Shown piece by piece: positions 7,305 through 58,932 of a DNA stretch of 64,000 nucleotides. This DNA is from a virus, in IMG/VR virus record IMGVR_UViG_3300027833_000025, positions 33,819 through 97,818 of that record. One strand, 5' to 3'. A model generated the notes under the pieces. The model was given only the letters and a program-made list of their open reading frames with translations, was not told the origin of the DNA and did not search any database. Positions within the stretch are counted from its first letter, which is position 1; each line of letters starts with the position of its first letter. Made by a program: the position numbers and the translations under genes.

Positions 7305-7997
7305 ATGAAACAAACAAATAGTAACCCTTGGGACATTTTAAATATAGCGACATCTTCATCCCAAGAAGAAATAAAGCAAGCATTTAAAAAACTTGCAATG
7401 AAGCATCACCCAGATAGAGGCGGCAAATCAGTCGAATTTAATCGTGTTGTTCAAGCATACGAACAACTACGAAAGAGTACTATCGTGCCTATTATTGTAA
7501 CTTCACATACACATTTAGTAAATGTAAAATTAACAATCAAGCAGCAGATAGAAGGTGTAGATGATTACATTGAGACAGATACTGGTGAGATATTGAAAGT
7601 AGCAATACCAGCAGGATCTAGGTTAGATGATAAGTATAAAGTAAACACTCCTATTGACAAATATATTGTTAATATCAAAGAATTATCACATAAAGTATTG
7701 ACAAGACAGGGATTATCGCTTATAATGAATATCACAATTGATATCGTAGATGCGATGCAAGGAAGTGTAATCCCAATTATAGGTCCATGTGACGAGCATT
7801 TAGAAATAGAAATCCCAGCGGGAGCGCAAGATGGGTTAGTCATTCTAGTACCTAACAAGGGCTTGATGAATAAACTAACAAAGAAGCGTGCAGGATTGCA
7901 CATTATTGTGAATACTGAAATCCCAAAATTAGATACTGATACTAGTATCGATCAATTTATATTAAGGTTAAGAGAATGTCAGAAATTGAAAACATAG
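7305..7997 (+). CDS. DnaJ/CbpA-like co-chaperone without zinc finger
   Basis: J domain with HPD (KHHPDRGG); C-terminal IPAG repeats of DnaJ_C. Confidence 0.9.
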   Translation: MKQTNSNPWDILNIATSSSQEEIKQAFKKLAMKHHPDRGGKSVEFNRVVQAYEQLRKSTIVPIIVTSHTHLVNVKLTIKQQIEGVDDYIETDTGEILKVAIPAGSRLDDKYKVNTPIDKYIVNIKELSHKVLTRQGLSLIMNITIDIVDAMQGSVIPIIGPCDEHLEIEIPAGAQDGLVILVPNKGLMNKLTKKRAGLHIIVNTEIPKLDTDTSIDQFILRLRECQKLKT

Positions 7998-10252
7998 TAG
8001 TTCGCGCTATTGATCTAGCAAAAAGTCATAATCATGAATACGTGACGCTAGAGCATTTATCGTTGGTAATTTTAGACGATACCGCAGTACGTATTATGTG
8101 TTACGAAATTCAAGCAGATTGTGAAAGTATACAACTCGCGATTGAGGATTACCTAGCAGCAGAATGTGATGAATTAGTTATGTCATCTGATGAAGAAATT
8201 ACTCCACGTAAGACACAAATGTTAGAGCGCGTATTCAATCGTGCAATGACACAGGCTGTATTTTACGGAAAGCAATCAATCAACAATGTTGATTTGCTAT
8301 TAAGTATTCTCTCAGAAGAGCAATCAGTAACAGCACATTTCGCATACGAATGTGGACTAGATAAGCATTCACTATCAGCGTGGTTGCATGATGTGAATTC
8401 AGTAATAAGTGAAGACTTTCGTGATGAAACAACAGGAACCAAACAGAAGCAAATACCTCGTAGTAATACAGCACCTTCGGCATTAGCACAATTCACTGTC
8501 AATATGAATGAAGAGTCAAGTAATTATGATGATGTAATTGGTCGCCGTGATGAATTACGTGATCTAGTACAGACACTTGCACGTAAGAAGAAATCTAATG
8601 CAGTGTTAGTAGGAGGTAGTGGTGTTGGTAAAACTGCTATTGTGGAAGGATTGGCAAAACTCATCGTAGAAGATGAAGTACCAGATGTTATCAAAGGTAA
8701 AACTGTATTAATGCTTGACATGGCAAAATTAGTCGCTGGTACTAAGTATCGTGGTGATTTCGAAGAGCGTATGAAGGCACTAGTTGAAGAATTAGAAAAG
8801 CGTGACGATATCATATTGTTCATTGATGAAATTCATATGGTAATTGGAGCAGGCTCAACTAGTGGTGGTTCTGGCGGTATGGATGCAGGAAACTTACTCA
8901 AACCCTCATTGTCAAGTGGTAAATTAAAAGTAATTGGTGCAACAACTGATCAAGAATATCGTAAATTATTTGAAAAAGAAGCAGCGTTAGCAAGAAGATT
9001 CACTAAGATTAATATCGAAGAGCCTACTTCCGAAGAAGCAAAGAAGATTATTCGTAATGCTGCTATGTCATATGAGATACATTATGGATTTGAAATTGAA
9101 CCATCTGCATGTGACTTAGCAGTTGATTTAAGTGCAGAGTATGTATTTAATAAGAAATTGCCAGATAAGGCATTCGATGTAATTGATCGTGCATGTGCAT
9201 TTAATAAGATTCAGCCTATCAATGAGCAAGTCACATTGATTACTGACGAAGCGATTCGTGCAGAATTATCTCGCTACACTGGTATACCAGCAGAGCATTT
9301 AGGAACTAAAGCAGAAGAACAAACAAACAACAAGCATATTCAAGTAGAGAATTTCTTGCGTAATAATGTATTTGGACAAGACGAAGCGATCAATCGTGTA
9401 ATCAATTCAATTACCATTAGTTTAGCAGGATTAAAAGAACCAAATAAGCCTATCGCAAGTTATTTATTCACTGGTCCAACTGGTGTTGGCAAAACGGAAA
9501 CAGCAAAGCGACTATCAGAGTCTATGGATATGAAACTCGTGCGATTTGATATGAGTGAGTATCAAGAAGCACATTCTGTATCGAAGTTGATTGGTTCACC
9601 TCCTGGTTATGTAGGTCATGGTGACGGAAAAGCAGGAGATGGTTTATTGATCACTGCATTGGAAGATTCACCAAATTGTGTGTTATTGTTAGACGAAGTA
9701 GAAAAAGCACATCCAGATATTATGTCAGTATTATTGGCATTATTAGACGATGGTGTGATCACATCAAGTACAGGAAAAAAAGTATCAGGTAAGAATTCAA
9801 TTATCATTATGACATCTAACTTAGGTGCGCGTGAAGGTTCAAAGAAAGCGATTGGATTTGGTGATCAAGCATATAACGCAGTAGCCGTTAATGAAGCAAT
9901 TAACAAATTCTTTGCACCAGAATTCCGAAATCGATTAGATGGTATTGTACAATTTAATGCATTAAAATTAAAATATATGCGCAGTATCGTTCTAAAGTTC
10001 TTAGGACAATTAGAAGGTTATATCGCATCACGTGGTGTTGAGATTGAATGGGACGAGAGTATATTAGTTTTCCTTGAAACAGAAGGTTATGATCCAGCAA
10101 TGGGCGCACGTCCTCTTTCACGACTAATCAACGAGCGTATTAAATTACCATTAGCAAAGCATATTATGAATGATACAATCACTGAAAAACTGATTATCAG
10201 TTATACAGATGGTGAAGTATTAATAACAACGAAAGAACTGGAGGCAGTGTGA
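7976..10252 (+). CDS. clpA: ClpA-like AAA+ unfoldase
   Basis: Clp-N domain (HEYVTLEH), two AAA modules (GGSGVGKT, GPTGVGKT), IGF loop, PEFRNRLD, MGARPL. Confidence 0.95.
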   Translation: MSEIENIVVRAIDLAKSHNHEYVTLEHLSLVILDDTAVRIMCYEIQADCESIQLAIEDYLAAECDELVMSSDEEITPRKTQMLERVFNRAMTQAVFYGKQSINNVDLLLSILSEEQSVTAHFAYECGLDKHSLSAWLHDVNSVISEDFRDETTGTKQKQIPRSNTAPSALAQFTVNMNEESSNYDDVIGRRDELRDLVQTLARKKKSNAVLVGGSGVGKTAIVEGLAKLIVEDEVPDVIKGKTVLMLDMAKLVAGTKYRGDFEERMKALVEELEKRDDIILFIDEIHMVIGAGSTSGGSGGMDAGNLLKPSLSSGKLKVIGATTDQEYRKLFEKEAALARRFTKINIEEPTSEEAKKIIRNAAMSYEIHYGFEIEPSACDLAVDLSAEYVFNKKLPDKAFDVIDRACAFNKIQPINEQVTLITDEAIRAELSRYTGIPAEHLGTKAEEQTNNKHIQVENFLRNNVFGQDEAINRVINSITISLAGLKEPNKPIASYLFTGPTGVGKTETAKRLSESMDMKLVRFDMSEYQEAHSVSKLIGSPPGYVGHGDGKAGDGLLITALEDSPNCVLLLDEVEKAHPDIMSVLLALLDDGVITSSTGKKVSGKNSIIIMTSNLGAREGSKKAIGFGDQAYNAVAVNEAINKFFAPEFRNRLDGIVQFNALKLKYMRSIVLKFLGQLEGYIASRGVEIEWDESILVFLETEGYDPAMGARPLSRLINERIKLPLAKHIMNDTITEKLIISYTDGEVLITTKELEAV

Positions 10253-11670
10253 GTGAATATGAAAATAATTCAGCAATTGTAGTTGAATATAAATCAAAGT
10301 ATTACAAAGTATTAGACAAAACAACGAAAGGACAGTTACAAGCAGCATGGGATATGAATGATTCAAGTAAAGATGATGATATGATTGAAGTAACATATCC
10401 ATCTGGTATGTCTGTTCATGCAGTACTCATTGTAAAAACAACAGCATCTACCGATACCGATTACCGCAATCTTGGTGGTAAATGCTTTTCCAAATATAAT
10501 AAAAAGTGCAATCATGTTTATTTTGAGTTTAATGATAAGACATCAGCGTTTATCATTGAAGGTGCACGACTTGCTGCATACTCATTCAGTAAGTACAAGA
10601 CAGATACAGAAAGTACTACGTTTACATATATTCATGGTACAGATTCAGTCAAAACCATTGAAGAAAGTGTGTTCTTGGCACGTGACCTAGTTACTGAGCC
10701 GGGTAACGAATTGTATCCAGAAGAGTACGCAGATCGTATCAACCAAATGTTAACACCTTTGGGTGTAACAGTAAAGATTATGCATGAGAAATTTCTACGT
10801 AAACTAGGATTTGATTTGCTATTGAGTGTTGGTGAAGGTTCTGATCGTGACAGTTATGTTGTTGTGATGGAACACATGAATGCTGATACAGACGCAGCAC
10901 CACTTGCTCTAGTAGGAAAGGGTGTTACATTTGATTCTGGCGGCATCTCACTAAAGCCTGGAAAGGGTATGGGAGATATGAAGACTGACATGGGTGGTTC
11001 AGCAGCAGTAGTTGGTGCTATGCACGCAATTGCTTCTCAGAATGTAAAAGCCAATGTAGTAGGAATCGTAGGACTTGTAGAAAACATGCCGTCTGGTGGT
11101 GCAACTCGCCCAGGTGATGTTATCGGGTCATTAAATGGTCAAACAGTCGAGAACTTGAATACAGATGCAGAAGGTCGCTTGGTACTTGCAGATATTCTAA
11201 CGTATGTACAAAATGAATACAAGCCAGCACAGATTATTGATTTAGCAACATTAACTGGTGCTATTTTGGTAACACTAGGTCACGAAGCAGCAGGTTTGTT
11301 TAGTAATTCTACTGGGTTCGCTAGTCATATTTCATCAGTTGGTTCAGATGCAGGAGAGAATTATTTCCGTATGCCAATGGGTAAAGTATGGAATAAGATG
11401 ATAGATTCCCCTATTGCTGATATGCAGAACATTGGCGGTCCGTATGGTGGTTCCACCACAGCAGCAGAGTTCTTGTATCGGTTCGTTGATAGTGATACTC
11501 CGTGGGCACATTTGGATATTGCAGGAATGGCATGGGCTGATAGTCCTAAAGATACCACACCTAAAGGTGCAGTAGGATTTGGTGTACGTACCCTGTACGA
11601 TATCGCCTGTGGTTTAAATCACGATCCAGCAACAACTCACTGGGCTATCGATCTAGATATGCAATACTAA
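10249..11670 (+). CDS. pepA: leucyl aminopeptidase (M17)
   Basis: VGKGVTFDSGG, MKTDMGG, NTDAEGRLVLAD, WAHLDIAG; GTG start. Confidence 0.95.
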   Translation: MSEYENNSAIVVEYKSKYYKVLDKTTKGQLQAAWDMNDSSKDDDMIEVTYPSGMSVHAVLIVKTTASTDTDYRNLGGKCFSKYNKKCNHVYFEFNDKTSAFIIEGARLAAYSFSKYKTDTESTTFTYIHGTDSVKTIEESVFLARDLVTEPGNELYPEEYADRINQMLTPLGVTVKIMHEKFLRKLGFDLLLSVGEGSDRDSYVVVMEHMNADTDAAPLALVGKGVTFDSGGISLKPGKGMGDMKTDMGGSAAVVGAMHAIASQNVKANVVGIVGLVENMPSGGATRPGDVIGSLNGQTVENLNTDAEGRLVLADILTYVQNEYKPAQIIDLATLTGAILVTLGHEAAGLFSNSTGFASHISSVGSDAGENYFRMPMGKVWNKMIDSPIADMQNIGGPYGGSTTAAEFLYRFVDSDTPWAHLDIAGMAWADSPKDTTPKGAVGFGVRTLYDIACGLNHDPATTHWAIDLDMQY

Positions 11671-29549: not shown

Positions 29550-30695
29550 ATGGAAAGAACAATTTTTGAAACAGAACACAATTTAATACGAGATGCAGTA
29601 CGCAGTTTTGCGACTGAGCATATTTCTCCATTCTATGAGCAATGGGAAGAAGATGGTCAAGTAGATCGTGATATGTGGCGTAAGGCTGGCGAAGCGGGAT
29701 TACTGTCACCCAATGTACCAGCAGAGTTTGGTGGGATGGAAGCAGATTTCCTAGTCAATGCTGTCATAGGCGAAGAACTATCAGCGATGGGATTCATTAG
29801 TCAAGCGGTAGGTTTTAGTATTCATTCCGATATCACTGTTCCTTATATAATGAATTATGGTACACAAGAACAAAAAGAAAAATATCTTCCTGCATGTATC
29901 ACGGGCGATATTGTATTAGCCCTCGCTATGTCAGAACCAGCAGCCGGATCAGATTTGCAAGGTATTAAAACGACAGCAGTAAAAGATGGCAACGATTATA
30001 TATTGAATGGTTCTAAGGTATTCATTACTAATGGACAACATGCCGATCTAGTATTAGTAGTAGCAAAGACCGATCCGACAGCGGGCGCTAAAGGCATTTC
30101 TCTATTCTTAGTAGAAGCAGATAGTGTTGGATTCACTCGTGGTCAGAACTTGAAGAAGATTGGATTACATTCACAAGATACTTCTGAATTATTCTTTGAT
30201 AATGTTCGTGTTCCTGTAGAGAACTTATTGGGAGGTGAAGGCATGGGCTTCATTATGCTTATGAGCGAATTACCAACCGAGCGTATGTCAGTATCGGTAG
30301 GCGCTATTGCATCGGCACAGTCTATTCTACAGCAGACTATTACATATACAGCAGAGCGTAAAGCATTTGGCAAACCTATTGCAGTTTTTCAGAACACTCA
30401 GTTCAAGTTAGCAGAAATGGATACCGACATTACAGTAGCACAAGTGTTCGTTGATCGTTGTCTTGAACTGTTAGTAGAAGGTAAGTTAGATGATGTTACG
30501 GCAGCAAAAGTAAAGTTGATGACTTCTGAACTACAATGTAAAGTGATTGATGAGTGTTTACAATTACATGGTGGTTATGGATATATGATGGAATATCCAG
30601 TGGCGAGAGCATTCCTTGATTCACGGGTTCAGCGTATATATGCAGGCACGAGCGAGATTATGAAAGTGATAATTTCTCGCAGTTTGTTTAAGTGA
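29550..30695 (+). CDS. acyl-CoA dehydrogenase (LCAD-type)
   Basis: AMSEPAAGSD, LNGSKVFITNG, ELPTER, R.AFGKPI..FQ, HGGYGY, RIYAGT. Confidence 0.95.
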   Translation: MERTIFETEHNLIRDAVRSFATEHISPFYEQWEEDGQVDRDMWRKAGEAGLLSPNVPAEFGGMEADFLVNAVIGEELSAMGFISQAVGFSIHSDITVPYIMNYGTQEQKEKYLPACITGDIVLALAMSEPAAGSDLQGIKTTAVKDGNDYILNGSKVFITNGQHADLVLVVAKTDPTAGAKGISLFLVEADSVGFTRGQNLKKIGLHSQDTSELFFDNVRVPVENLLGGEGMGFIMLMSELPTERMSVSVGAIASAQSILQQTITYTAERKAFGKPIAVFQNTQFKLAEMDTDITVAQVFVDRCLELLVEGKLDDVTAAKVKLMTSELQCKVIDECLQLHGGYGYMMEYPVARAFLDSRVQRIYAGTSEIMKVIISRSLFK

Positions 30696-35718: not shown

Positions 35719-35979
35719 TTGAAAGTTATGTCAAATAGTGCAATCTGCACATTTGTATCAACACAAGATGGTATTGTAGTTGTACATCATAAGGAATGGG
35801 GTGGCTATATATATGACGATGAGTGTATATGGCATAATGATATTGGACCCGCTGTTGTATGGCCTGATGGACATGCTGCATGGTGGTTTGATGGGAAAGA
35901 GTTCAACTTCAATGATTGGGTTGAACTAGTTGACCTACGAGATGAAGAAGTATTTTTACTAAAGATGACATATTTATAA
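35719..35979 (+). CDS. HxxxGPA-motif small protein
   Basis: WHNDIGPAV.WPDG...WWFDG; ends DEEVFLLKM. Confidence 0.65.
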   Translation: MKVMSNSAICTFVSTQDGIVVVHHKEWGGYIYDDECIWHNDIGPAVVWPDGHAAWWFDGKEFNFNDWVELVDLRDEEVFLLKMTYL

Positions 35980-36506
35980 TGAATATTAGCGAAGGCTGGA
36001 TAAGTCTACAAGAAATGGAATTTGTAAAAAATCTAATGACTGTAGAACATGGTAATATTTTAGAAGTAGGTGCTGCAAACGGAAGACTATTTACTTATTT
36101 GTATAGTTCTTTTCCAACTTGGAAATATGTAGCAGTAGATCCGTGGGAACAAGAACAAGTAAGATTACAAGTTGATTGGGATAAAGGATATTTTGAGCCT
36201 AACAACTTAAAAGAAGTAATTACTATAGATATGTTTAAATCAAATTGTCCATATGCAGAAACACACGAAATGTATTTTGACAATTTTAAATCAGATTACA
36301 AATACGACATAATAAGTATGGGGTTAGTAAGTAAACATATGGATTGGAAAAGTGTTTATAAAAAAGCATTTTCAATGTTACAACCTAATGGGGTTATCAT
36401 TGGAAGAAATTTAACACATAAAAGATATGGCGCAATGATCAAGGAAGCAATACATGAATATAATATTATTGATACTTGTTCTGGATCATTTTTAATAAAA
36501 AACTGA
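35979..36506 (+). CDS. class I SAM-dependent methyltransferase
   Basis: ILEVGAANG, VAVDPW, L.PNGVII. Confidence 0.8.
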   Translation: MNISEGWISLQEMEFVKNLMTVEHGNILEVGAANGRLFTYLYSSFPTWKYVAVDPWEQEQVRLQVDWDKGYFEPNNLKEVITIDMFKSNCPYAETHEMYFDNFKSDYKYDIISMGLVSKHMDWKSVYKKAFSMLQPNGVIIGRNLTHKRYGAMIKEAIHEYNIIDTCSGSFLIKN

Positions 36507-36537
36507 TAAATATTGACATAAAACAGGGAAAAGTAAT

Positions 36538-37620
36538 ATGACAGCACGTAATGAAAAAAATTGGTTAGCCGAACCAACCGTCGAATATATTAGTAGTGAA
36601 TGCTACAGTAGTCAAGAAATTTATGAAGCAGAAATTAAAGAGATATTTTCTAAAGTTTGGATCCCTATTATTCATAAGAGTGAAATAAAGAATACAGGCG
36701 ACTATCGAACATCTCAAATTGCATTTCGAAACATAGTTATAATCAATCACGGTGATCGTATTGGATGCTATATCAATCCAGGACTCAAGGGAGTAGCCGG
36801 TACAGTTGATCCAACTACTGTAATTGAATCTAGAGAATTATTATCCGAAGTAAAATATGGCGGTATGGTATGGACAACACTAAATCCAATCCCAACCATG
36901 GATGTAGAGCAATGGACAGACGGTGCATTTGATTGTATTTCACAAGCAATTGATACCGAAGAACTAGAAGTGTTCCATTATCATAAAGCAATTATTCCAA
37001 CAAACTATAAACTATGGCATGACACTAACAGTGAGTTCTATCATGACTACATGCATTATTTTAATAGAATTACTGGATTCACTCCTGAGTACTTTGCTCG
37101 TGCATGTACAGGGTTTGACAACGGGCACGTTAATGTTGGTAGTTTCGAAGTTCAGTATGATAAATTTGAATGTGCAGCAGATCGGGGTGCATTAAGCTTT
37201 CCGGGTGTCCCGCCTAATCAGTGGTACATGGTAGACTTGTTTCCAGGATACAACTTTAACCTACGAGGCAGTGCATACCGCAGTGATAGCATTACACCAC
37301 TAGGTCCAGACAGTGTATTAATTGAGTTTCGTGGATACGGATTGTTAAGTGATTCTCCAAAAGAACGCGAACAACGTATAAATGACCATAATACTATATG
37401 GGGACCATTTGGTCGTAACCTACATGAAGACCTGTTAGGAGTTACTGGACAAGGTATAGCAATGGCGCCTGGCACAGAACGTAGAAACATACTACATGGT
37501 AGACATGAAAACAATACTATACATGATGAAATTGGGATGCGTCACTACTATGCAGAATGGGGGAAGTACTTAAACGTAGACCCAGCAAGTCCGTTAAAAG
37601 AATTGGTCAGTCATTCGTAA
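36538..37620 (+). CDS. aromatic ring-hydroxylating oxygenase alpha subunit lacking Rieske ligands
   Basis: E..EIFSKVW...H.SEI...GDY N-terminus; NYKLWHDTNSEFYHDYMH and HED catalytic Fe ligands; no CxH/CxxH. Confidence 0.8.
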   Translation: MTARNEKNWLAEPTVEYISSECYSSQEIYEAEIKEIFSKVWIPIIHKSEIKNTGDYRTSQIAFRNIVIINHGDRIGCYINPGLKGVAGTVDPTTVIESRELLSEVKYGGMVWTTLNPIPTMDVEQWTDGAFDCISQAIDTEELEVFHYHKAIIPTNYKLWHDTNSEFYHDYMHYFNRITGFTPEYFARACTGFDNGHVNVGSFEVQYDKFECAADRGALSFPGVPPNQWYMVDLFPGYNFNLRGSAYRSDSITPLGPDSVLIEFRGYGLLSDSPKEREQRINDHNTIWGPFGRNLHEDLLGVTGQGIAMAPGTERRNILHGRHENNTIHDEIGMRHYYAEWGKYLNVDPASPLKELVSHS

Positions 37621-37631
37621 TAGGAAATAGT

Positions 37632-38558
37632 ATGGAGTACACTGATATAACATTTGAAATGTTAGGTACACGTAGACAACGTCCTATGTACCTTAGTAAG
37701 TTTCCTAAGTTTAGACAAAGTATGAGTATGAAAGATTATCCAAAAGATGCACATGCATACACAACTTATTTTTTAGAAGAGATAGATACTTGGATAAATT
37801 CACATAAACATGTAAAATACACGGGCTTAGAGACCTTTACAATCAGAGATGCTATACTTGGCACTACGCATCAGTTAGATGAATTACATCACATGCATGG
37901 TGCAAATATAGCGACATACCAAGGGGAATATAAATATCATAGACGATTGACAGATTTCGATGTTAAGCAGATCACACACTATACCGACTTAACACAGGGT
38001 GATGTATTCATTGTAAGTTATCCTAGTTGTATCACCACAGGGTATCATGAAAACTTTGATTTATTATTAGACCATTGCGATGAACATAACATACCCGTAC
38101 ATATTGATGGTGCGTGGTTTGGTCAATGCAGAAACTTTAATTTTGATGTTACTCATCCAGCAGTAAAAAGTGTTAGTGTAAGTTTATCAAAGGCATTGGG
38201 CATGGGTAGTCAGCGTATAGGTATTAGATATACTAAAGAGAAAACTGTTGGTCCAATAAGTATTATGAATGACTTTGCATATGCAAATGTTAGTGATATG
38301 TGGTTAGGTGTAGAAGCAATGAAGCACTTTGGTCCAGACTACTGGTGGTCTAACTATAGTGACTTATATAGTAAAGTTTGTAAAGACTTTAACTTAGGTG
38401 AGGCAAATAGCATTCATGTAGGCTGGTTAGACTCAGGTGAACATGGAATTAATCAATTTGGTGTGCGTACCCCTTTGCGATTCTTAATAGAAGGTTTTTT
38501 TGATGAACGTGGAACTGACAAAGGCCTAAACAAAATTGAAAGAGAAGAACGAGTATGA
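37632..38558 (+). CDS. fold-type I PLP-dependent enzyme
   Basis: HIDGAW, SLSK (Schiff-base Lys), RIG. Confidence 0.8.
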   Translation: MEYTDITFEMLGTRRQRPMYLSKFPKFRQSMSMKDYPKDAHAYTTYFLEEIDTWINSHKHVKYTGLETFTIRDAILGTTHQLDELHHMHGANIATYQGEYKYHRRLTDFDVKQITHYTDLTQGDVFIVSYPSCITTGYHENFDLLLDHCDEHNIPVHIDGAWFGQCRNFNFDVTHPAVKSVSVSLSKALGMGSQRIGIRYTKEKTVGPISIMNDFAYANVSDMWLGVEAMKHFGPDYWWSNYSDLYSKVCKDFNLGEANSIHVGWLDSGEHGINQFGVRTPLRFLIEGFFDERGTDKGLNKIEREERV

Positions 38559-39217
38559 TATTAGATCATCAAGACGGAACAACTGTTGGAATGAAACTCA
38601 GCGGAGGTGCTGATAGCAGTATTATATACTATGCATTTTGTGAAAAGTATAAAAACAATGATAGTGTAAATATAGTAGTCATTACCTTAGACACTGATCT
38701 GAACTTCTATTATGTAGCAAATGCTACCCGTATAATAGAAAAAGTTGCTGAATTAACAGGTAAACGTCCACTAAAGCATTTTACTAATCGCATACCGCAT
38801 GGATGGAGAGAGTATACCGCTGGACAAGAAGACCTCGTGAAACAATCTCAAAGTGAGTTTGGTGACATGAAGTTTTATAGTGGAATGACTACAAATCCTA
38901 ATATTGATGACATGAAAGAATATTTTCTAAACAACGATTTTGGATTAAATTATACAACCGTATTAGATACCATTGCAAGTCGCGATGTTGAAAGAGATGA
39001 ACTACATGGTTTAAATCGTGGATACAGACCATTTGGCAACAGTGATAAAAGAGCAGTATCACACGCCTACAACGACTTAAATGCATTAGACATAATTTAT
39101 ACTCATACGAACAGTTGCGAGTCAGTGACAATGGTAGGGGATGATGGTATCCCCATACACTGCGGTCATTGTTGGAATTGCTTAGAACGCTGGTATGCAT
39201 TTGGTAGGATCTTATAA
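38555..39217 (+). CDS. QueC-like PP-loop ATPase
   Basis: LSGGADS; C-terminal SC...HCGHCWNCLER. Confidence 0.75.
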   Translation: MILDHQDGTTVGMKLSGGADSSIIYYAFCEKYKNNDSVNIVVITLDTDLNFYYVANATRIIEKVAELTGKRPLKHFTNRIPHGWREYTAGQEDLVKQSQSEFGDMKFYSGMTTNPNIDDMKEYFLNNDFGLNYTTVLDTIASRDVERDELHGLNRGYRPFGNSDKRAVSHAYNDLNALDIIYTHTNSCESVTMVGDDGIPIHCGHCWNCLERWYAFGRIL

Positions 39218-39237
39218 TAAAATGGAGAATAATTTGA

Positions 39238-40203
39238 ATGCCAAAATGCTTAGCTTTTAAACATGCAGCATGTATAGGATTAACAGGACATGTACGACCA
39301 TGTTGTGCATGGAGAGGTGATGGTGCAACTGGTCTTACCATTACTGACGATTGGCAATCTGTGCACAACAAATACTATGAGGAATCATTACATGATTGGT
39401 TGCCAGAATGTAAGGAGTGCCAGCAAGACGAAGAATCAAACGGTAAAAGTTATCGAAAGACTATTAATAGAAGGTTAAAAGATAGTACTGGTATTGAATT
39501 CTGGGACTTGAAGATTAATAATACATGCAACCTCACATGTGTATCTTGCAGTAGTTATAGTTCAAGTTCATGGTCAATAATCACTGGCAGAAAAGAATAC
39601 CAAATAGGATGGCACAAAGAGATTGAGCAAATATATGCACAATTACATAGTGCAAAAATTGTTAAATTCACAGGTGGTGAGCCATTTATGATACCACAAG
39701 TAAAGAAAATAATTAAATATCTAATAGATATAGATGTTTCATCTAAGATTGAATTACAATTCGTTACTAATGGAACAATCGATATTAAATCATATTATAC
39801 TTTATTTGAATGCTTTAAAAAAATCGATGTAATAGCAAGTATAGATGCTATAGGTGAGCGTTTTGAATACCTTAGACGCGGTGCTATCTGGGAGCAAGTA
39901 AGTAATAATATTATTGACATACATAAAAATGCACCAGATAATACACTTGTATCTATTACTTGCTTGCCAAGTGCACTAAATATTAATAACATTCATGAAG
40001 TCGAAGACTGGGCAACAAGTTATGATATTAAATTTCATAGGGCGAGTGATCTGATTACACCAACATATATGACTCCGAATGCATTGTCTGATCAAGATAA
40101 TAAACAACAATTAATTGATCATGTAATGATTTTAGATGATATAGATGGAAAAGACCATACTAAATGGATAAACACTAATGAAAATTTTAAGGATATAGAA
40201 TGA
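39238..40203 (+). CDS. radical SAM protein with N-terminal SPASM/twitch-like Cys motif
   Basis: VRPCC, CKEC, CNLTCVSC, FTGGEP. Confidence 0.9.
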   Translation: MPKCLAFKHAACIGLTGHVRPCCAWRGDGATGLTITDDWQSVHNKYYEESLHDWLPECKECQQDEESNGKSYRKTINRRLKDSTGIEFWDLKINNTCNLTCVSCSSYSSSSWSIITGRKEYQIGWHKEIEQIYAQLHSAKIVKFTGGEPFMIPQVKKIIKYLIDIDVSSKIELQFVTNGTIDIKSYYTLFECFKKIDVIASIDAIGERFEYLRRGAIWEQVSNNIIDIHKNAPDNTLVSITCLPSALNINNIHEVEDWATSYDIKFHRASDLITPTYMTPNALSDQDNKQQLIDHVMILDDIDGKDHTKWINTNENFKDIE

Positions 40204-41555
40204 GTTGTACATTTTGTCCACTTCCGTGGAATAGCATTAACTTACGCAACAATGGAGATTTACGAATTTGTTGTAATACAAACAGTTATAGTCCACAACG
40301 TGGAATTATGAGAAAAGAAGATGGCACACCTTACAATGCAGGGAAAGACGATTGGAATGAAGCACGTAATGCTGCACTTGTAAAAGAAGTACGTGTTAGT
40401 ATGATGAATGGGGAATGGCATCCAGAGTGTACTCGTTGCAAAAAAGAAGAAGAAAGTGGTATGCGTAGTCGTAGAGAATATGAAAATGACGATTGGGGTA
40501 CATGGTTTGGTGATATGGGTCTTGAAAAAGTATTGCCAATTACCGAAGCAGATGGTACACTAGATACAAGTAAGCAAGACATTGAGTATATGGATATTCG
40601 TTACGGTAACTTTTGTAATTTAAAATGTCGCATGTGTGGACCTACTGATAGTCATATGTGGTATGATGATTTCGTAAAGATACATGACAAAACATCATAC
40701 AAAGATACACACGACACAATACAGTTAACTAAAAACGCTAAAGGTAAATGGCATACTGATCAATATAATTGGTTTCAGGATAATGACATTTACTGGGATA
40801 ACTTTGAAAAGTATGCACCTGATGCTAAAAAACTTTATATTGTTGGTGGTGAGCCTTTAATTATTGCTGAACACCAAGAAAGTCTTGAACGGTTAGTTGC
40901 TAGTGGAAAATCAGGTAAAATACAATTAGAGTATAATACAAATTTAACTATGGTTCCTAACAGTTTAGTACACTTGTGGGAACAGTTTAAACAAATACGT
41001 ATTGGAGTTAGTATAGATGGTATAGACGATGTGTTTAATTATCAACGTACTCCTGCAAAGTTTGATGCAGTGTATAAGAATATGATGATATTACAAAATA
41101 ATGAACGCATTAATCTTAAAGCATGGTTTGCTTATACTGTTACACCTATGAACGTGTTCCATACAGCAGACTTTATGAAATGGAAACTTACTGAAAGCGG
41201 ATTGGATAAATTTAATCCACTAGACGGCATGCGTCCTGTCATTACACATCACATGTGTCATAGTCCAAAATATTACAATGTAAAAGTGTTACCTCAATAT
41301 CTTAAAGATCAAGTTGCTGAACATTATCAAGAACATAAAGATTGGATACTAACTACAGACTTTAGTGACAAAGTTAAAGACAATTTTATTAAAGTATTAA
41401 ATAGTATTGAAAAGTTTATGATGAGTGAAGACTATAGTGAAGAATGGCTAGATCAATTTATATCTCAAACTACAAAATTAGATGAAGTTAGAAATCAAAA
41501 TATATTAGATATAGTTCCGCAGTATGCGAAATTGTTTAATGAACATAACAAATGA
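40200..41555 (+). CDS. radical SAM protein with N-terminal SPASM/twitch-like Cys motif
   Basis: FCPLPW, RICC, CTRC, CNLKCRMC, VGGEP. Confidence 0.92.
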   Translation: MSCTFCPLPWNSINLRNNGDLRICCNTNSYSPQRGIMRKEDGTPYNAGKDDWNEARNAALVKEVRVSMMNGEWHPECTRCKKEEESGMRSRREYENDDWGTWFGDMGLEKVLPITEADGTLDTSKQDIEYMDIRYGNFCNLKCRMCGPTDSHMWYDDFVKIHDKTSYKDTHDTIQLTKNAKGKWHTDQYNWFQDNDIYWDNFEKYAPDAKKLYIVGGEPLIIAEHQESLERLVASGKSGKIQLEYNTNLTMVPNSLVHLWEQFKQIRIGVSIDGIDDVFNYQRTPAKFDAVYKNMMILQNNERINLKAWFAYTVTPMNVFHTADFMKWKLTESGLDKFNPLDGMRPVITHHMCHSPKYYNVKVLPQYLKDQVAEHYQEHKDWILTTDFSDKVKDNFIKVLNSIEKFMMSEDYSEEWLDQFISQTTKLDEVRNQNILDIVPQYAKLFNEHNK

Positions 41556-41815
41556 CGATTGCTAACAAAGCACTGGAATACGACTTTTTTATTAACGCCA
41601 GTGCACTCTGACAGTACTATCATGAACTACTACTAGATGTAGTGTATAAAACCGCACAGAGTGCACGGAAGTCCCTACATATAGTGTCAATTGTTTTCAC
41701 CACTGATTGTGGTACAAAAGGTCTTATTGTACATATCAATAAGAGAAGAAAGCATTGATCCTATACAAGTGACTGATGCAGAATAAATCTAAATAATACT
41801 ATAAGGAGTATACAG

Positions 41816-42289
41816 ATGAACAAATATATTAAGAACGCAGTAGTTTTATTAGCAAAGGTGGCAATGGTGTCATTGACTTTATTTTTAACAGCATCACCAA
41901 TTATGGCGAAAGAAGTAGAAATGGAAATATATAATTTTCCGATTACAAGAGTTATAGATGGTGACACAGTTGCATTTCAAGCAAATTTTTTACCATCGCC
42001 GTTGAAGCAAGAATTAAGCATTCGTGTGTATGGTGTAGATACACCTGAGAAGAGTTGGAGAGCCGAATGTCCTAAAGAAGCAGCATGGGGAGAAGAAGCG
42101 TCACAGTTCACTACAGATCGTTTAAACGCAGCAACCGTTATACAAGTAGCCATTTATAAATGGGACAAGTTTGGTGGTCGAGTACTTGGTGACATCATTA
42201 TAGATGGTAGGAGTTTAAGACACATGCTTATAGCAGAAGGCTTTGCTAGAGAATATTATGGTGATAAGAAAATTTCTTGGTGCATCTAA
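41816..42289 (+). CDS. thermonuclease (SNase) with signal peptide
   Basis: RVIDGDT, IRVYGVDTPE, DKFGGR.L; hydrophobic N-terminus. Confidence 0.9.
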   Translation: MNKYIKNAVVLLAKVAMVSLTLFLTASPIMAKEVEMEIYNFPITRVIDGDTVAFQANFLPSPLKQELSIRVYGVDTPEKSWRAECPKEAAWGEEASQFTTDRLNAATVIQVAIYKWDKFGGRVLGDIIIDGRSLRHMLIAEGFAREYYGDKKISWCI

Positions 42290-42292
42290 TAC

Positions 42293-43462
42293 ATGAGCGA
42301 AGATTTAAAATACAGTACATACGATTTTACTAAAATACCATTTGATAATTTAGTAAGAGTGGGACAACGTACCATGCTACATCGTGATTTATTCACGGTG
42401 AGCTGGTTGTTAGGTCGCTATTGTAATTACAGATGTAGTTACTGCTGGCCTTATGCCCGCAGTGATAAGAAAGACTTTAGACCTACTGAATTATGTCTAC
42501 TTACGATTGACGAGATTAAGCGTCAAGCACGAGAAAATGGGTTTAATAGTTTCCACTTTAGTTTAAGTGGCGGTGAACCAACATTCCATCCGGGTTATCT
42601 GGACATAATGAAGCATCTATCAGACGATGTAAACAACACAAATTATACATCAGTTCATATGACAACTAATATGTCACGTCCTATGAAATGGTTTGAGACT
42701 TACGTTAAGTACGTATCGAAATTTCATCGTGCAAGTATTACCGCAAGTTTGCATACAGAGCATTTAGACACCAGAGAAAAGATGCAAGTCTTTGCCGACA
42801 AGTTAGTATTCTGTCAAGAACATGATGTACAAGTAACTATTAATCAAGTGATGGTTCCAGAATGGTTTGATAGAGACTGGGATAATGCATTATTTTTTCA
42901 TAATCAGGGAATCAACTGCACATTAAAACCGATGTCGGATCCTACTGCTAGTAAGATAGTAGATGGTTATACACCCGAAATGCTTAAAGCATTGCACAAT
43001 GGTATGCCTCAACGTGGTTATACAGAAGATAAAGCAAAAAAGTCTATGTTAGTCACACGTCCTAAGCCTAACTTTAAGAGAGATGGTGATCCATTGTATT
43101 GGAAAGAGAATGCATCTGTGCCTCAACATTTTCAAGTTGAGTTCATTGATAAAGATAACAAGCATTGGTTCATGGATCAGGCTGAACGATTTAACGCATT
43201 TGGTTTTAATAAATTTAAGGGTTGGGAATGTTCATCAGGTCATCGTAGTATTATAATTAGAGAGCCTGATGGTAGTGTAAAGCGTAGTTATAGTTGTGCA
43301 GATCAGCCGTTAGGAAATATAGAAACTGGGTTCAAACTGTTTGACGCACCTACTGTGTGTACAACAAATGCTTGCGTTAGTAGCGCAGATAGCAAGATAC
43401 CAAAACGTGCGGCTGGGACTCAATTACCATTGTTTCCAGGCGACACTACTTTTAAAGAATAG
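42293..43462 (+). CDS. radical SAM protein with C-terminal twitch-like domain
   Basis: CNYRCSYC, SGGEP, C-terminal C..G..C..C..C. Confidence 0.92.
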   Translation: MSEDLKYSTYDFTKIPFDNLVRVGQRTMLHRDLFTVSWLLGRYCNYRCSYCWPYARSDKKDFRPTELCLLTIDEIKRQARENGFNSFHFSLSGGEPTFHPGYLDIMKHLSDDVNNTNYTSVHMTTNMSRPMKWFETYVKYVSKFHRASITASLHTEHLDTREKMQVFADKLVFCQEHDVQVTINQVMVPEWFDRDWDNALFFHNQGINCTLKPMSDPTASKIVDGYTPEMLKALHNGMPQRGYTEDKAKKSMLVTRPKPNFKRDGDPLYWKENASVPQHFQVEFIDKDNKHWFMDQAERFNAFGFNKFKGWECSSGHRSIIIREPDGSVKRSYSCADQPLGNIETGFKLFDAPTVCTTNACVSSADSKIPKRAAGTQLPLFPGDTTFKE

Positions 43463-57864: not shown

Positions 57865-58932
57865 TTATGTCTTCTTGCGATATACTCTCTTTTTCTTTGC
57901 TGGTGCTGCTGCTTCAATTAGTTCTGCTTCATCTAACACCTTATTGAATTCACGTAGACGCTTAATCACTGATTGAAAGTCAACAATCGTTGTCCATCTA
58001 TCAATGAAGAATGTCATTGAACCCTCTACTCTACTAAATGCGTTAAGTACTTGGAATAGAACACCTAATGTTATTAACTGTTCAAAGTAACTTGGTGCTA
58101 ATACAATGATTGCTATGTTTCCTGCTGCTAATCCGAATGCAGTTGACCATACACCAAACCCCATATACCAGTTGAACAAACGATAATAGTTTTTCTTTAC
58201 TGCTGCAAACATTGGAAATAAATCATCAGTTACACGTTGAGTCAAATCATCTTCTGAATGAACTAATTTCTTTCTGAATTTTGCTTCTACCACTTGGTTA
58301 TTGTATTCTAGTCCAGGCAATTTCATACCTAGTATGAATGAGATCAATGTACCACCGATAGATACGCCTAGTGCTACCCATACTAAGAATCCAGGGATGA
58401 TATGACCATTCCAAACTGGTAGTCCTTCTGAAAGTTCCCATAAGATCGGCAAGAATGCAAATAATACAAGTATTGCACTAAAGAAGCCAGTGAATAGACT
58501 TTGTAATGTTTTACCGAATACCATTAAATCTTCTTGAATACGCTGTGACCCACCTTCTATTTTAGCAGTGGATTTCTCCCATCGTTTAAGATAGTGATGT
58601 GTATTCGCTTCGCGCCAACGGAATGTATACCTCTGTGTCTGCCATATAACGTATGTTGCCATTGGTGTATATAGGATTATAATTTCCAAGAATGATGGTA
58701 CAGTATCTTCTTTTATTGTTAACAACTCGGTAAATCTGATCACATCAAATCCCCATAATAAGTCCCAAAATCTTTCTTCTTGTAGTGTTTGAATTGCGTC
58801 ATAGAACTCTTTATTCCATAAGTTGTATGCTACTAATATTTGTACATTGTACCAAGTAATAACTAACAAGAATGCAAGCATTACCCATGCATATACGGCA
58901 CTTTCTTTCGTTCCAAAGAAACTTTTTAACAT
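57865..58932 (-). CDS. SbmA/BacA-family peptide transporter
   Basis: M.KSFF N-terminus, N.W...FYD.IQ, FRWR, IEG.SQRIQED, LE.NNQ.VEA.FRK.LV..ED, KRLR.F. Confidence 0.88.
   Translation of the reverse strand: MLKSFFGTKESAVYAWVMLAFLLVITWYNVQILVAYNLWNKEFYDAIQTLQEERFWDLLWGFDVIRFTELLTIKEDTVPSFLEIIILYTPMATYVIWQTQRYTFRWREANTHHYLKRWEKSTAKIEGGSQRIQEDLMVFGKTLQSLFTGFFSAILVLFAFLPILWELSEGLPVWNGHIIPGFLVWVALGVSIGGTLISFILGMKLPGLEYNNQVVEAKFRKKLVHSEDDLTQRVTDDLFPMFAAVKKNYYRLFNWYMGFGVWSTAFGLAAGNIAIIVLAPSYFEQLITLGVLFQVLNAFSRVEGSMTFFIDRWTTIVDFQSVIKRLREFNKVLDEAELIEAAAPAKKKRVYRKKT

What the first reader, a model, noticed from the sequence alone, without database searches (positions are those of the whole stretch)
36538..37620. 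Ring-hydroxylating oxygenase alpha subunit with the Rieske [2Fe-2S] site deleted
Seen: the flanks of the Rieske domain are kept (IFSKVW..IH.SEI..GDY...CYIN and VKYGGMVW.TL). The stretch that normally holds CxH...CxxH is replaced by a short ligand-free segment (PGLKGVAGTVDPTTVIESRELL). The mononuclear Fe ligands (EFYHDYMH, HED) are intact and the ORF is unbroken. Established: these oxygenases need the Rieske cluster for electron delivery. Inference: a distinct enzyme type fed by another donor (Fpr/ferredoxin or neighbouring Fe-S proteins), running non-redox or substrate-assisted chemistry, or co-assembling with host subunits.
Basis: partly seen in the sequence, partly recalled or inferred. Interest (0 to 1): 0.75.

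Follow-up and report, generated by a model that had tools for sequence, protein, structure and literature searches.

The report
Phage copy of Rieske-less MsmA
A giant marine phage carries only the iron-site half of a methanesulfonate-splitting oxygenase; the gene type was already noticed in 2013-2015, but in SAR116 bacteria the missing iron-sulfur half sits on a separate, reductase-fused sister protein, which suggests how the phage enzyme gets its electrons.

Summary
ORF 36538-37620 (360 aa) is an intact oxygenase alpha subunit. It keeps the iron ligands (EFYHDYMH, HED) but lacks about 47 residues that hold CxH-X26-CxxH.

It is not unique or decaying. More than 200 distinct copies share the deletion, at least 571 IMG/VR contigs carry it, and dN/dS is 0.02-0.15.

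It derives from methanesulfonate monooxygenase MsmA: 93% of MsmA's conserved catalytic positions are kept. Phage HMO-2011 gp61 is a homologue, and the missing Rieske motif in such "MsmA" proteins was reported in 2015 (PMC4433239).

What appears unreported in the searched literature is the partner:
- In all 15 SAR116 genomes that carry this form, a roughly 800-aa sister protein lies in or near the msm operon.
- That sister protein keeps the MsmA Rieske site, has lost the iron ligands, and is fused to an FAD reductase.
- A complex model docks its Rieske loops on the phage protein's iron-ligand helix (0.78; best control 0.00). This may only reflect likeness to solved trimers.

Best reading (about 0.6): a split alpha subunit fed in trans, NdmC/NdmD-like. 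Phages carry only the catalytic half.

This scan reached the same reading earlier on another genome (e1-5801447).

The parts
36538..37620 (+). Complete ORF (360 aa, P0001): Rieske-less MsmA-like oxygenase alpha subunit, called A' in this report
   Evidence: AF2 pLDDT 89.1, pTM 0.88; Foldseek top hits are Rieske oxygenase alpha subunits at E about 1e-19
36538..36762 (+). Residues 1-75: N-terminal helix and the retained first strands of the Rieske-domain base
   Evidence: phmmer matches to residues 18-74 of solved oxygenases; strands 42-46, 55-61, 64-70 modelled with block pLDDT 96-98
36763..36834 (+). Residues 76-99: deletion scar that replaces the roughly 70-residue CPH-X26-CMFH cluster-binding segment of MsmA
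   Evidence: A2, A3; most variable part of the protein, with 0 of 24 positions conserved at 95% or more in 204 sequences
37033..37056 (+). Residues 166-173, EFYHDYMH: candidate bridging Glu166 and the two His iron ligands (H169, H173)
   Evidence: identical motif in canonical MsmA; invariant in A'; motif census; H169 lies in the predicted interface
37423..37431 (+). Residues 296-298, HED: candidate carboxylate iron ligand Asp298
   Evidence: invariant in A' and in MsmA; aligned with the HDD of PDB 9o71 and 7yls
37435..37527 (+). Residues 300-330: conserved block predicted to receive the partner's Rieske loops; this same block is deleted in the SAR116 Rieske-bearing paralog
   Evidence: interface residues 300-301, 304-314, 316, 318-324, 329-330; conservation; deletion in the fusion paralog (A3, A6)
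36505..36512 (+). GATAAATA box 26 nt upstream of the ATG, with AGGGA at 36525-36529 as a likely ribosome-binding site; possible T4-style late promoter
   Evidence: sequence read; 9 copies in the window against 6.9 expected, so not enriched, but all lie on the coding strand of the local genes. Inference only.

Best explanation
The ORF is a jumbo-phage auxiliary metabolic gene. It encodes the catalytic, mononuclear-iron half (A') of a split methanesulfonate monooxygenase alpha subunit. A' arose from MsmA by loss of the Rieske cluster-binding fingers, and it keeps MsmA's active site almost unchanged. In SAR116 bacteria the Rieske cluster is carried by a second MsmA paralog. That paralog has lost its own iron ligands and is fused to an FAD-dependent ferredoxin reductase. 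Proposed electron path (inferred): NADH, then the fused reductase domain, then (probably) the Rieske ferredoxin MsmC, then the Rieske cluster of the fusion paralog, then across a head-to-tail subunit contact via Glu166 to the iron of A'. There methanesulfonate would be hydroxylated and fall apart to formaldehyde and sulfite. Phages carry A' alone, so the phage protein would have to assemble with the host's Rieske/reductase paralog and beta subunit. Shown here: the sequence anatomy, the clade, purifying selection, and the operon linkage with complementary losses. Inferred: physical assembly, electron flow, substrate, and the benefit to the phage (possibly replacing a damage-prone catalytic subunit to keep C1 and sulfur metabolism running).
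For: 1) Descent from MsmA. P0001 is 56-60% identical to canonical MsmA. Of 124 catalytic-domain positions conserved at 95% or more in 53 canonical MsmA, 115 hold the same residue in at least 90% of 204 A' sequences. A' is one clade (SH-aLRT 100) nested among MsmA.
2) Operon linkage. In SAR116 loci the order is fusion paralog, MsmB-like beta subunit, Rieske ferredoxin, unknown 274-aa gene, A'. An MsmE-like binding protein is encoded divergently, and LysR, the TauE sulfite exporter and formate-THF ligase lie downstream.
3) Complementary loss. The census gives canonical forms Rieske+/HxxxH+/HED+ (58), A' Rieske-/+/+ (22 GTDB, 80 of 81 viral matches, 121 metagenomic), and fusion paralog Rieske+/-/- (13). 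The only other pattern is one partial viral match without HED.
4) Co-occurrence. In 96 Puniceispirillaceae genomes, 15 have A'. All 15 have the fusion paralog or a fragment of it. No canonical MsmA was found there with this query.
5) Selection. dN/dS is 0.015-0.07 for bacterial pairs and 0.12-0.15 for virus-type pairs.
6) Docking surface. In the complex model of the L018 fusion N-terminus with P0001, ipSAE is 0.78 and the best of 3 controls is 0.00. That mark was reached by 58 of 80 solved complexes and 2 of 110 mismatched pairs. The runs share at least 49% of contacts, and partner pLDDT is at least 83. The Rieske ligand loops (89-97, 121-124) touch A' residues 162, 168-169, 171-172 and 300-330. 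Those A' residues are more conserved than the rest: 72% against 53% of positions at 95% or more.
7) Known geometry. Rieske oxygenases pass electrons between neighbouring subunits (12 A), not within one subunit (44 A), via a bridging Glu or Asp three residues before the first His ligand (PMC7948474). Glu166 is invariant.
8) Precedent. NdmC lacks the Rieske cluster and NdmD carries it (PMC4408171).
9) Phage HMO-2011, which infects a SAR116 strain, carries A'. The literature reports both a Rieske-containing and a Rieske-less 'MsmA' in that host.
Against: No biochemistry exists for A' or for the fusion paralog. The host of this jumbo phage is unknown; PepA similarity gives only a weak lean towards SAR116. 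A' is far more widespread in viruses (at least 571 IMG/VR contigs of several phage types) than the only bacterial group seen with the partner (15 of 96 SAR116 species; none beyond the query genome itself in a 401-genome sample of its class). Some viral copies may therefore act without that partner. The complex model may pass only because solved Rieske oxygenase trimers look like this, and it cannot tell a hetero-oligomer from a homo-oligomer. A three-fold ring cannot alternate two subunit types, so the stoichiometry is unexplained. The operon's free Rieske ferredoxin could instead be the direct donor.
Confidence: 0.6

Rival explanations
1. A' is a working oxygenase, but its iron is reduced directly by a small soluble carrier (the operon's Rieske ferredoxin MsmC or another host ferredoxin). 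The fusion paralog would then serve only as the reductase.
For: A Rieske ferredoxin gene sits in every SAR116 operon. Any host with a compatible ferredoxin could then serve the phage, which fits the wide viral spread.
Against: The Rieske domain of the fusion paralog is kept almost identical to canonical MsmA while its catalytic site decays, so that cluster is under selection. The A' surface that canonically receives an alpha-subunit Rieske domain is the best conserved part.
Confidence: 0.15
2. A' has a non-redox role. It might bind methanesulfonate, or act as a metal-dependent lyase on a methanesulfonate-like compound such as hydroxymethanesulfonate, and so need no electrons.
For: There is no cluster and no donor gene in about 1 Mb of viral flanks. 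The MsmA-like pocket is kept.
Against: The bridging Glu166 and the Rieske-docking block 300-330 are invariant although a non-redox protein would not need them. The complementary paralog is always present in bacterial carriers.
Confidence: 0.1
3. The phage copy is a modifier or poison subunit. It would enter the host oxygenase oligomer and change or block its activity rather than sustain it.
For: It lacks the cluster, is predicted to dock on the host subunit, and is carried without partners.
Against: The bacteria keep the same protein in their own msm operon under strong purifying selection. Viral copies keep all catalytic residues.
Confidence: 0.06
4. In this phage A' belongs to the local tailoring cluster (methyltransferase, PLP-like, PP-loop and three radical SAM genes at 35979-43462). 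It would act on that pathway's substrate, with electrons from those Fe-S enzymes.
Against: Immediate neighbours of A' are not conserved. Even related jumbo-phage contigs (L100, L156) place the radical SAM genes elsewhere, and other phage types lack them. The active site is that of MsmA.
Confidence: 0.05
5. The gene is a decaying remnant of msmA.
For: A cofactor site has been lost.
Against: The frame is intact in more than 200 distinct sequences. dN/dS is 0.015-0.15. About half of all positions are conserved at 95% or more.
Confidence: 0.01

Closest known systems
Puniceispirillum phage HMO-2011 gp61 (YP_008320323, annotated 'methanesulfonate monooxygenase') and the Rieske-less 'MsmA' sequences of ocean metagenomes and viromes noted by Henriques and De Marco 2015 (PMC4433239)
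   Same: Same clade: 65% identity over 99% of the length, same deletion, same iron motifs, and also a phage gene carried without partner genes.
   Different: The window copy sits in a jumbo phage (PolB 43-49% identical to Phosso, Atu_ph07 and CBB-type phages), not in a 55-kb phage genome. Its neighbours differ. The papers I could read note the missing motif but give no mechanism.
Canonical methanesulfonate monooxygenase hydroxylase alpha subunit MsmA (Methylosulfonomonas, Filomicrobium, Hyphomicrobium; msmABCD)
   Same: 56-60% identity, the H-x3-H plus HED iron motifs, and 93% of conserved catalytic positions. SAR116 relatives lie in an msm operon with MsmB, MsmC and MsmE homologues.
   Different: It lacks the defining CXH-X26-CXXH Rieske motif. 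About 47 residues are deleted, so it cannot be a self-sufficient alpha subunit.
NdmC/NdmD/NdmE N7-demethylase of Pseudomonas putida CBB5 (PMC4408171)
   Same: An oxygenase subunit without a Rieske cluster, with the cluster supplied in trans by a protein that also carries the reductase.
   Different: In NdmD a bare Rieske domain is added to an FNR-type reductase. Here a whole, catalytically dead alpha paralog is fused to a glutathione-reductase-type FAD reductase. A beta subunit and a free Rieske ferredoxin are kept, and no GST-like NdmE was seen in the operon. Homology to NdmC was not tested.
Carnitine monooxygenase CntA and other head-to-tail alpha3 Rieske oxygenases (PDB 6y9c, 7q04, 7c8z)
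   Same: Same fold (TM 0.65-0.75). A bridging Glu lies three residues before the first His ligand, and electron transfer runs between subunits.
   Different: Those enzymes are homotrimers in which every subunit carries both cofactors.

Membership tests
Rieske non-heme iron oxygenase alpha subunit | Rieske [2Fe-2S] ligands CxH-Xn-CxxH | tested here: not met
   Absent in P0001 and in all 204 distinct clade members. No conserved Cys or His in the scar.
Rieske non-heme iron oxygenase alpha subunit | Catalytic domain fold (PF00848) | tested here: met
   Pfam 22.1 bits, just under the 24.9 cut-off. The AF2 model (pLDDT 89) matches TPADO, NagG and CntA at E about 1e-19.
Rieske non-heme iron oxygenase alpha subunit | 2-His-1-carboxylate iron ligands with a bridging acidic residue | tested here: met
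   By sequence only: E166, H169, H173 and D298 are invariant. Metal binding was not measured.
MsmA (methanesulfonate monooxygenase alpha) | CXH-X26-CXXH long-spacer Rieske motif (PMC4433239) | tested here: not met
   Deleted.
MsmA (methanesulfonate monooxygenase alpha) | MsmA-type catalytic domain | tested here: met
   115 of 124 conserved MsmA positions are kept. A' is nested in the MsmA tree.
MsmA (methanesulfonate monooxygenase alpha) | msmABCD/msmEFGH gene context | tested here: not met
   No Rieske-domain gene (PF00355) in the 97.8-kb contig. No beta subunit, Rieske ferredoxin, reductase or MsmE homologue in the window or in 80 viral loci. The context is met only for the bacterial members of the clade.
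MsmA (methanesulfonate monooxygenase alpha) | Oxidation of methanesulfonate to formaldehyde and sulfite | not testable with these tools
   Needs an enzyme assay.
Viral/SAR116 Rieske-less MsmA-like clade (HMO-2011 gp61 type) | One clade, 350-370 aa, shared deletion, intact iron motifs | tested here: met
NdmCDE-type split Rieske oxygenase | Rieske-less oxygenase, with the Rieske cluster on the reductase protein | tested here: inconclusive
   The architecture is analogous in SAR116, but the partner is a whole dead alpha paralog. Assembly is only modelled.
NdmCDE-type split Rieske oxygenase | GST-like structural subunit NdmE | tested here: not met
   No GST-like domain among the L018 and L169 operon genes scanned against Pfam.

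The most novel reading that the evidence does not exclude
Many viral copies work without any Rieske partner. A' would be a mononuclear-iron enzyme that cleaves methanesulfonate (or a related small sulfonate) using a non-protein oxidant or reductant, for example a peroxide-shunt type reaction in sunlit surface water. That would let phages of hosts lacking msm genes use it. The gap between its very wide viral spread and the narrow bacterial range of the Rieske-bearing partner leaves room for this.
Probability: 0.1. Interest if true: 0.85.

Novelty: new variant of a known kind. Interest (0 to 1): 0.55.

Why it matters
Methanesulfonate is a major product of atmospheric dimethylsulfide oxidation, and msmA is used as a marker gene for its breakdown in the sea.

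If the split-enzyme reading holds, three things follow:
- The abundant "MsmA" sequences without a Rieske motif in ocean metagenomes and viromes are real catalytic subunits, not mis-annotations.
- In SAR116 the Rieske-containing "MsmA" that PCR and marker surveys count is catalytically dead.
- Rieske oxygenases gain a second, independent case after NdmCDE of the two cofactors being divided between proteins, here by complementary decay of two paralogs.

For phage biology, it would be an auxiliary gene that works only by plugging into a host complex.

Tried and rejected
Context was therefore taken from related-loci loci with my own ORF calling and clustering.
- PHROGs has no family for P0001.
- The HMO-2011 paper (PMC3725092) is not held.
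- No Rieske-domain gene was found in the phage's 97.8-kb contig.
- tblastn with the fusion paralog, MsmB, MsmC, the reductase domain, the unknown 274-aa gene and MsmE found nothing but A' itself in about 1 Mb of viral loci.
- Host inference from the phage's M17 peptidase was inconclusive. About 83% of Puniceispirillaceae genomes reach E of 1e-112 or better, against 11% of a class-wide sample, but the best identities are similar (52-62%).
- GATAAATA is not enriched in the window (9 copies against 6.9 expected).
- Sigma-70 and terminator scans around the gene were at background.
- The unknown 274-aa operon gene has no Pfam, NCBIfam or PDB match. There is only an Atlas lead to DUF5996.
- The idea that the neighbouring radical SAM, PLP-like and PP-loop genes feed the oxygenase was rejected, because those neighbours are not conserved.
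- Literature searches for a described split MsmA found nothing beyond the 2015 note.

Full report
**Observation**

window:36538-37620:+ is a single 360-aa ORF (P0001).

- Residues 18-74 match the beginning of the Rieske domain of solved oxygenase alpha subunits (E 6e-8 to 1e-4).
- Residues 141-344 match PF00848 weakly (22.1 bits against a 24.9 cut-off).
- An AlphaFold2 model built on a 50-row alignment is confident (mean pLDDT 89.1, pTM 0.88).
- Foldseek places the model among Rieske oxygenase alpha subunits (TPADO 7q04/7q05, NagG 7c8z, CntA 6y9c; E about 1e-19, TM 0.65-0.75).
- The base strands of the Rieske domain are still modelled (strands at 42-46, 55-61, 64-70, 75-79, 100-106, 110-114). 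Only the cluster-binding fingers are gone.

**What it derives from**

In GTDB genomes the relatives fall into two length classes.

- Proteins of about 353 aa are 64-71% identical to P0001.
- Proteins of about 405-412 aa are 49-55% identical. These are canonical methanesulfonate monooxygenase alpha subunits (MsmA) of Hyphomicrobiaceae, Filomicrobium, Methyloligellaceae and others.

The alignment (A2) shows that the short form is MsmA with two gaps. Together they remove about 47 residues, including CPH-X26-CMFH.

The iron motifs are identical between the two forms (NYKLWHDTNSEFYHD[FY]MHY and WGPFGRNLHEDL). Of 124 catalytic-domain positions conserved at 95% or more in 53 canonical MsmA, 115 carry the same residue in at least 90% of 204 short-form sequences.

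I call the short form A'.

**Is the deletion unique or decaying? No.**

- The search for homologous proteins returned 1218 relatives at E 0.001 or better; the best 120 listed are 64-94% identical.
- A motif census found all 121 listed proteins, 22 GTDB loci and 80 IMG/VR loci Rieske-negative. All but one partial IMG/VR match were also positive for both iron motifs.
- At least 571 IMG/VR contigs encode A'.
- Across 204 distinct sequences the scar (residues 76-99) is the most variable stretch. None of its 24 positions is conserved at 95% or more, so no substitute ligand set exists. About half of the rest of the protein is conserved at that level.
- Nei-Gojobori dN/dS is 0.015-0.07 for bacterial pairs. 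It is 0.12-0.15 for virus-type pairs, including window against L003, though dS there is near saturation.
- A' is one clade (SH-aLRT 100) nested within MsmA. The window copy lies in a large, mostly metagenomic and viral subclade.

**Already known**

- Puniceispirillum phage HMO-2011 gp61, annotated 'methanesulfonate monooxygenase', is 65% identical over 99% of the length.
- Henriques and De Marco 2015 (PMC4433239) state that the SAR116 isolate IMCC1322 has two 'MsmA' proteins, only one of which has the Rieske motif.
- The same paper notes that many GOS and virome sequences, including that of HMO-2011, lack all four Cys/His ligands. It offers no explanation.
- Further searches found none either.

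**The new piece: the bacterial context**

I clustered ORFs around 22 GTDB short-form loci and scanned them against Pfam and NCBIfam.

SAR116/Puniceispirillum genomes share this gene order:
1. A paralog of about 800 aa.
2. An MsmB-like beta subunit (162 aa).
3. A Rieske ferredoxin (133 aa).
4. An unknown 274-aa gene.
5. A'.

An MsmE-like binding protein (61-72% identical to that of canonical clusters) is encoded divergently upstream. LysR, the sulfite exporter TauE, a PanB-like enzyme and formate-THF ligase lie downstream.

The paralog of about 800 aa has two parts.

- Its N-terminal part is MsmA-like. The Rieske segment is almost identical to canonical MsmA, with CPH-X26-CMFH kept.
- Its C-terminal part is a Pyr_redox_2 (HcaD-like) FAD ferredoxin reductase (residues about 406-803).

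Its catalytic domain has lost the EFYHDxMH motif and the whole HED...HGRHEN...IHDE block (A3). In a 2.75-Mb complete genome (G032) the decay is milder, but H169 is Gln, H173 is deleted and the HED block is gone (A6).

The census is clean:

| Form | Rieske motif | HxxxH | HED | Count |
|---|---|---|---|---|
| Canonical MsmA | + | + | + | 58 |
| A' | - | + | + | 223 |
| Fusion paralog | + | - | - | 13 |

The only other pattern was one partial IMG/VR match without HED.

**Co-occurrence**

- Among 96 species-level genomes of the SAR116 family, 15 have A'.
- All 15 show the fusion paralog or a contig-end fragment of it (G028 via L042; G001 and G002).
- No canonical MsmA was found in that family with this query.
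- In a 401-genome sample of the class, A' appeared only in the query genome itself.
- Marine Rhodospirillales with canonical MsmA (L025, L030) have no A'.

**Viral context**

- The window is part of a 97.8-kb IMG/VR contig estimated 27% complete.
- Its PolB is 43-49% identical to jumbo myoviruses of 350-490 kb (Phosso, Atu_ph07, CBB).
- About 1 Mb of flanks around 80 viral A' genes plus the window hold no MsmB, Rieske ferredoxin, reductase or MsmE homologue.
- The contig has no Rieske-domain gene.
- A' occurs in several unrelated phage backbones with non-conserved neighbours. The local methyltransferase, PLP-like, PP-loop and radical SAM genes are therefore unlikely partners.
- Several 'bacterial MAG' hits are phage contigs. 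L003 has the same 29,883-bp length as IMG/VR record L112, and it shares gene clusters with many viral loci.

**Mechanism**

In Rieske oxygenases the cluster and the iron of one subunit are about 44 A apart. Electrons pass about 12 A from the cluster of one subunit to the iron of its neighbour, through a bridging acidic residue three positions before the first His ligand (CntA E205; PMC7948474).

A' keeps that residue (E166, invariant).

The docking surfaces also decayed in a complementary way. The block 300-330 of A' is invariant in A' and in MsmA, and it is exactly the block deleted in the fusion paralog.

The complex model paired the L018 fusion N-terminus with the phage protein.

- ipSAE was 0.78 and the best of 3 controls 0.00. 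That mark was reached by 58 of 80 solved complexes and 2 of 110 mismatched pairs.
- The runs share at least 49% of contacts, and partner pLDDT is at least 83.
- The two Rieske ligand loops (89-97 with C91/H93; 121-124 with C120/H123) sit against A' residues 162, 168-169 (H169 is an iron ligand), 171-172 and 300-330.
- This is the canonical head-to-tail contact. The pass may therefore come from likeness to solved trimers. It shows compatibility, not binding.

The closest functional precedent is NdmC (no Rieske cluster) with NdmD (reductase carrying the extra Rieske cluster) (PMC4408171). The architecture here differs: a whole dead alpha paralog is fused to a different reductase class, the beta subunit and ferredoxin are retained, and there is no GST-like subunit.

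**Verdict**

The gene is a new, jumbo-phage member of a known but unexplained protein clade.

The best explanation (about 0.6) is a split alpha subunit whose Rieske half is supplied in trans by the host. The stoichiometry, the substrate and the host of this phage remain untested.

An earlier follow-up of this scan on another genome (e1-5801447) reached the same reading. I reached it from my own calls before reading that note, but the two are not independent evidence.

Noticed in passing
L018:6921-7745 (also L169:11555-12385; homologues L032:6651-7517 and L050:13368-14429): A conserved gene of about 275 aa lies immediately upstream of A' in every SAR116 msm operon, and near canonical msmA in two other genomes. 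It has no Pfam, NCBIfam or PDB match. The Atlas gives only a lead to DUF5996.
   Followed up: partly
L169:6912-11502 (G032), also L005 and L022: In some Puniceispirillum genomes a dmsABC-like molybdoenzyme set (Molybdopterin, Fer4_11, DmsC) is inserted inside the msm operon, between the Rieske ferredoxin and the gene of about 275 aa.
   Followed up: partly
G002:C5:71188-73571 (L085): In one SAR116 single-cell genome the Rieske-bearing paralog and the reductase are two adjacent open frames (341 and 491 aa) rather than one fusion. This is either an unfused form or a frameshift.
   Followed up: no
L003, L004, L017, L021, L028 (GTDB MAG contigs): Contigs binned as Rickettsiales, Hellea, Verrucomicrobiales, Endobugula and Legionellales MAGs look like phage DNA. 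They carry many small co-oriented ORFs, and most share gene clusters with IMG/VR loci. L003 has the same length as IMG/VR record L112. This is likely mis-binning.
   Followed up: partly
window 35979-43462: Co-oriented methyltransferase, weak PLP-decarboxylase-like, weak QueC-like PP-loop, three radical SAM genes and an SNase-like gene surround the oxygenase. The radical SAM family recurs in related jumbo-phage contigs (L100, L156), but not next to A'.
   Followed up: partly
window 11699, 12621, 15744, 16291, 23544, 36505, 46676, 52503, 56621: GATAAATA boxes all lie on the coding strand of the local genes, several 20-50 nt before a start codon. The total count is not above chance. This may be a late-promoter variant of T4's TATAAATA.
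   Followed up: partly
window 37557-37620: The next ORF (37557-38558) as listed overlaps the 3' end of the oxygenase gene by 64 nt. Its true start is probably further downstream.
   Followed up: no
window 7976-11670, 29550-30695, 57865-58932: The phage also carries a ClpB-like double AAA ATPase, an M17 leucyl aminopeptidase (52-62% identical to alphaproteobacterial PepA), an acyl-CoA dehydrogenase and an SbmA/BacA-like transporter.
   Followed up: partly
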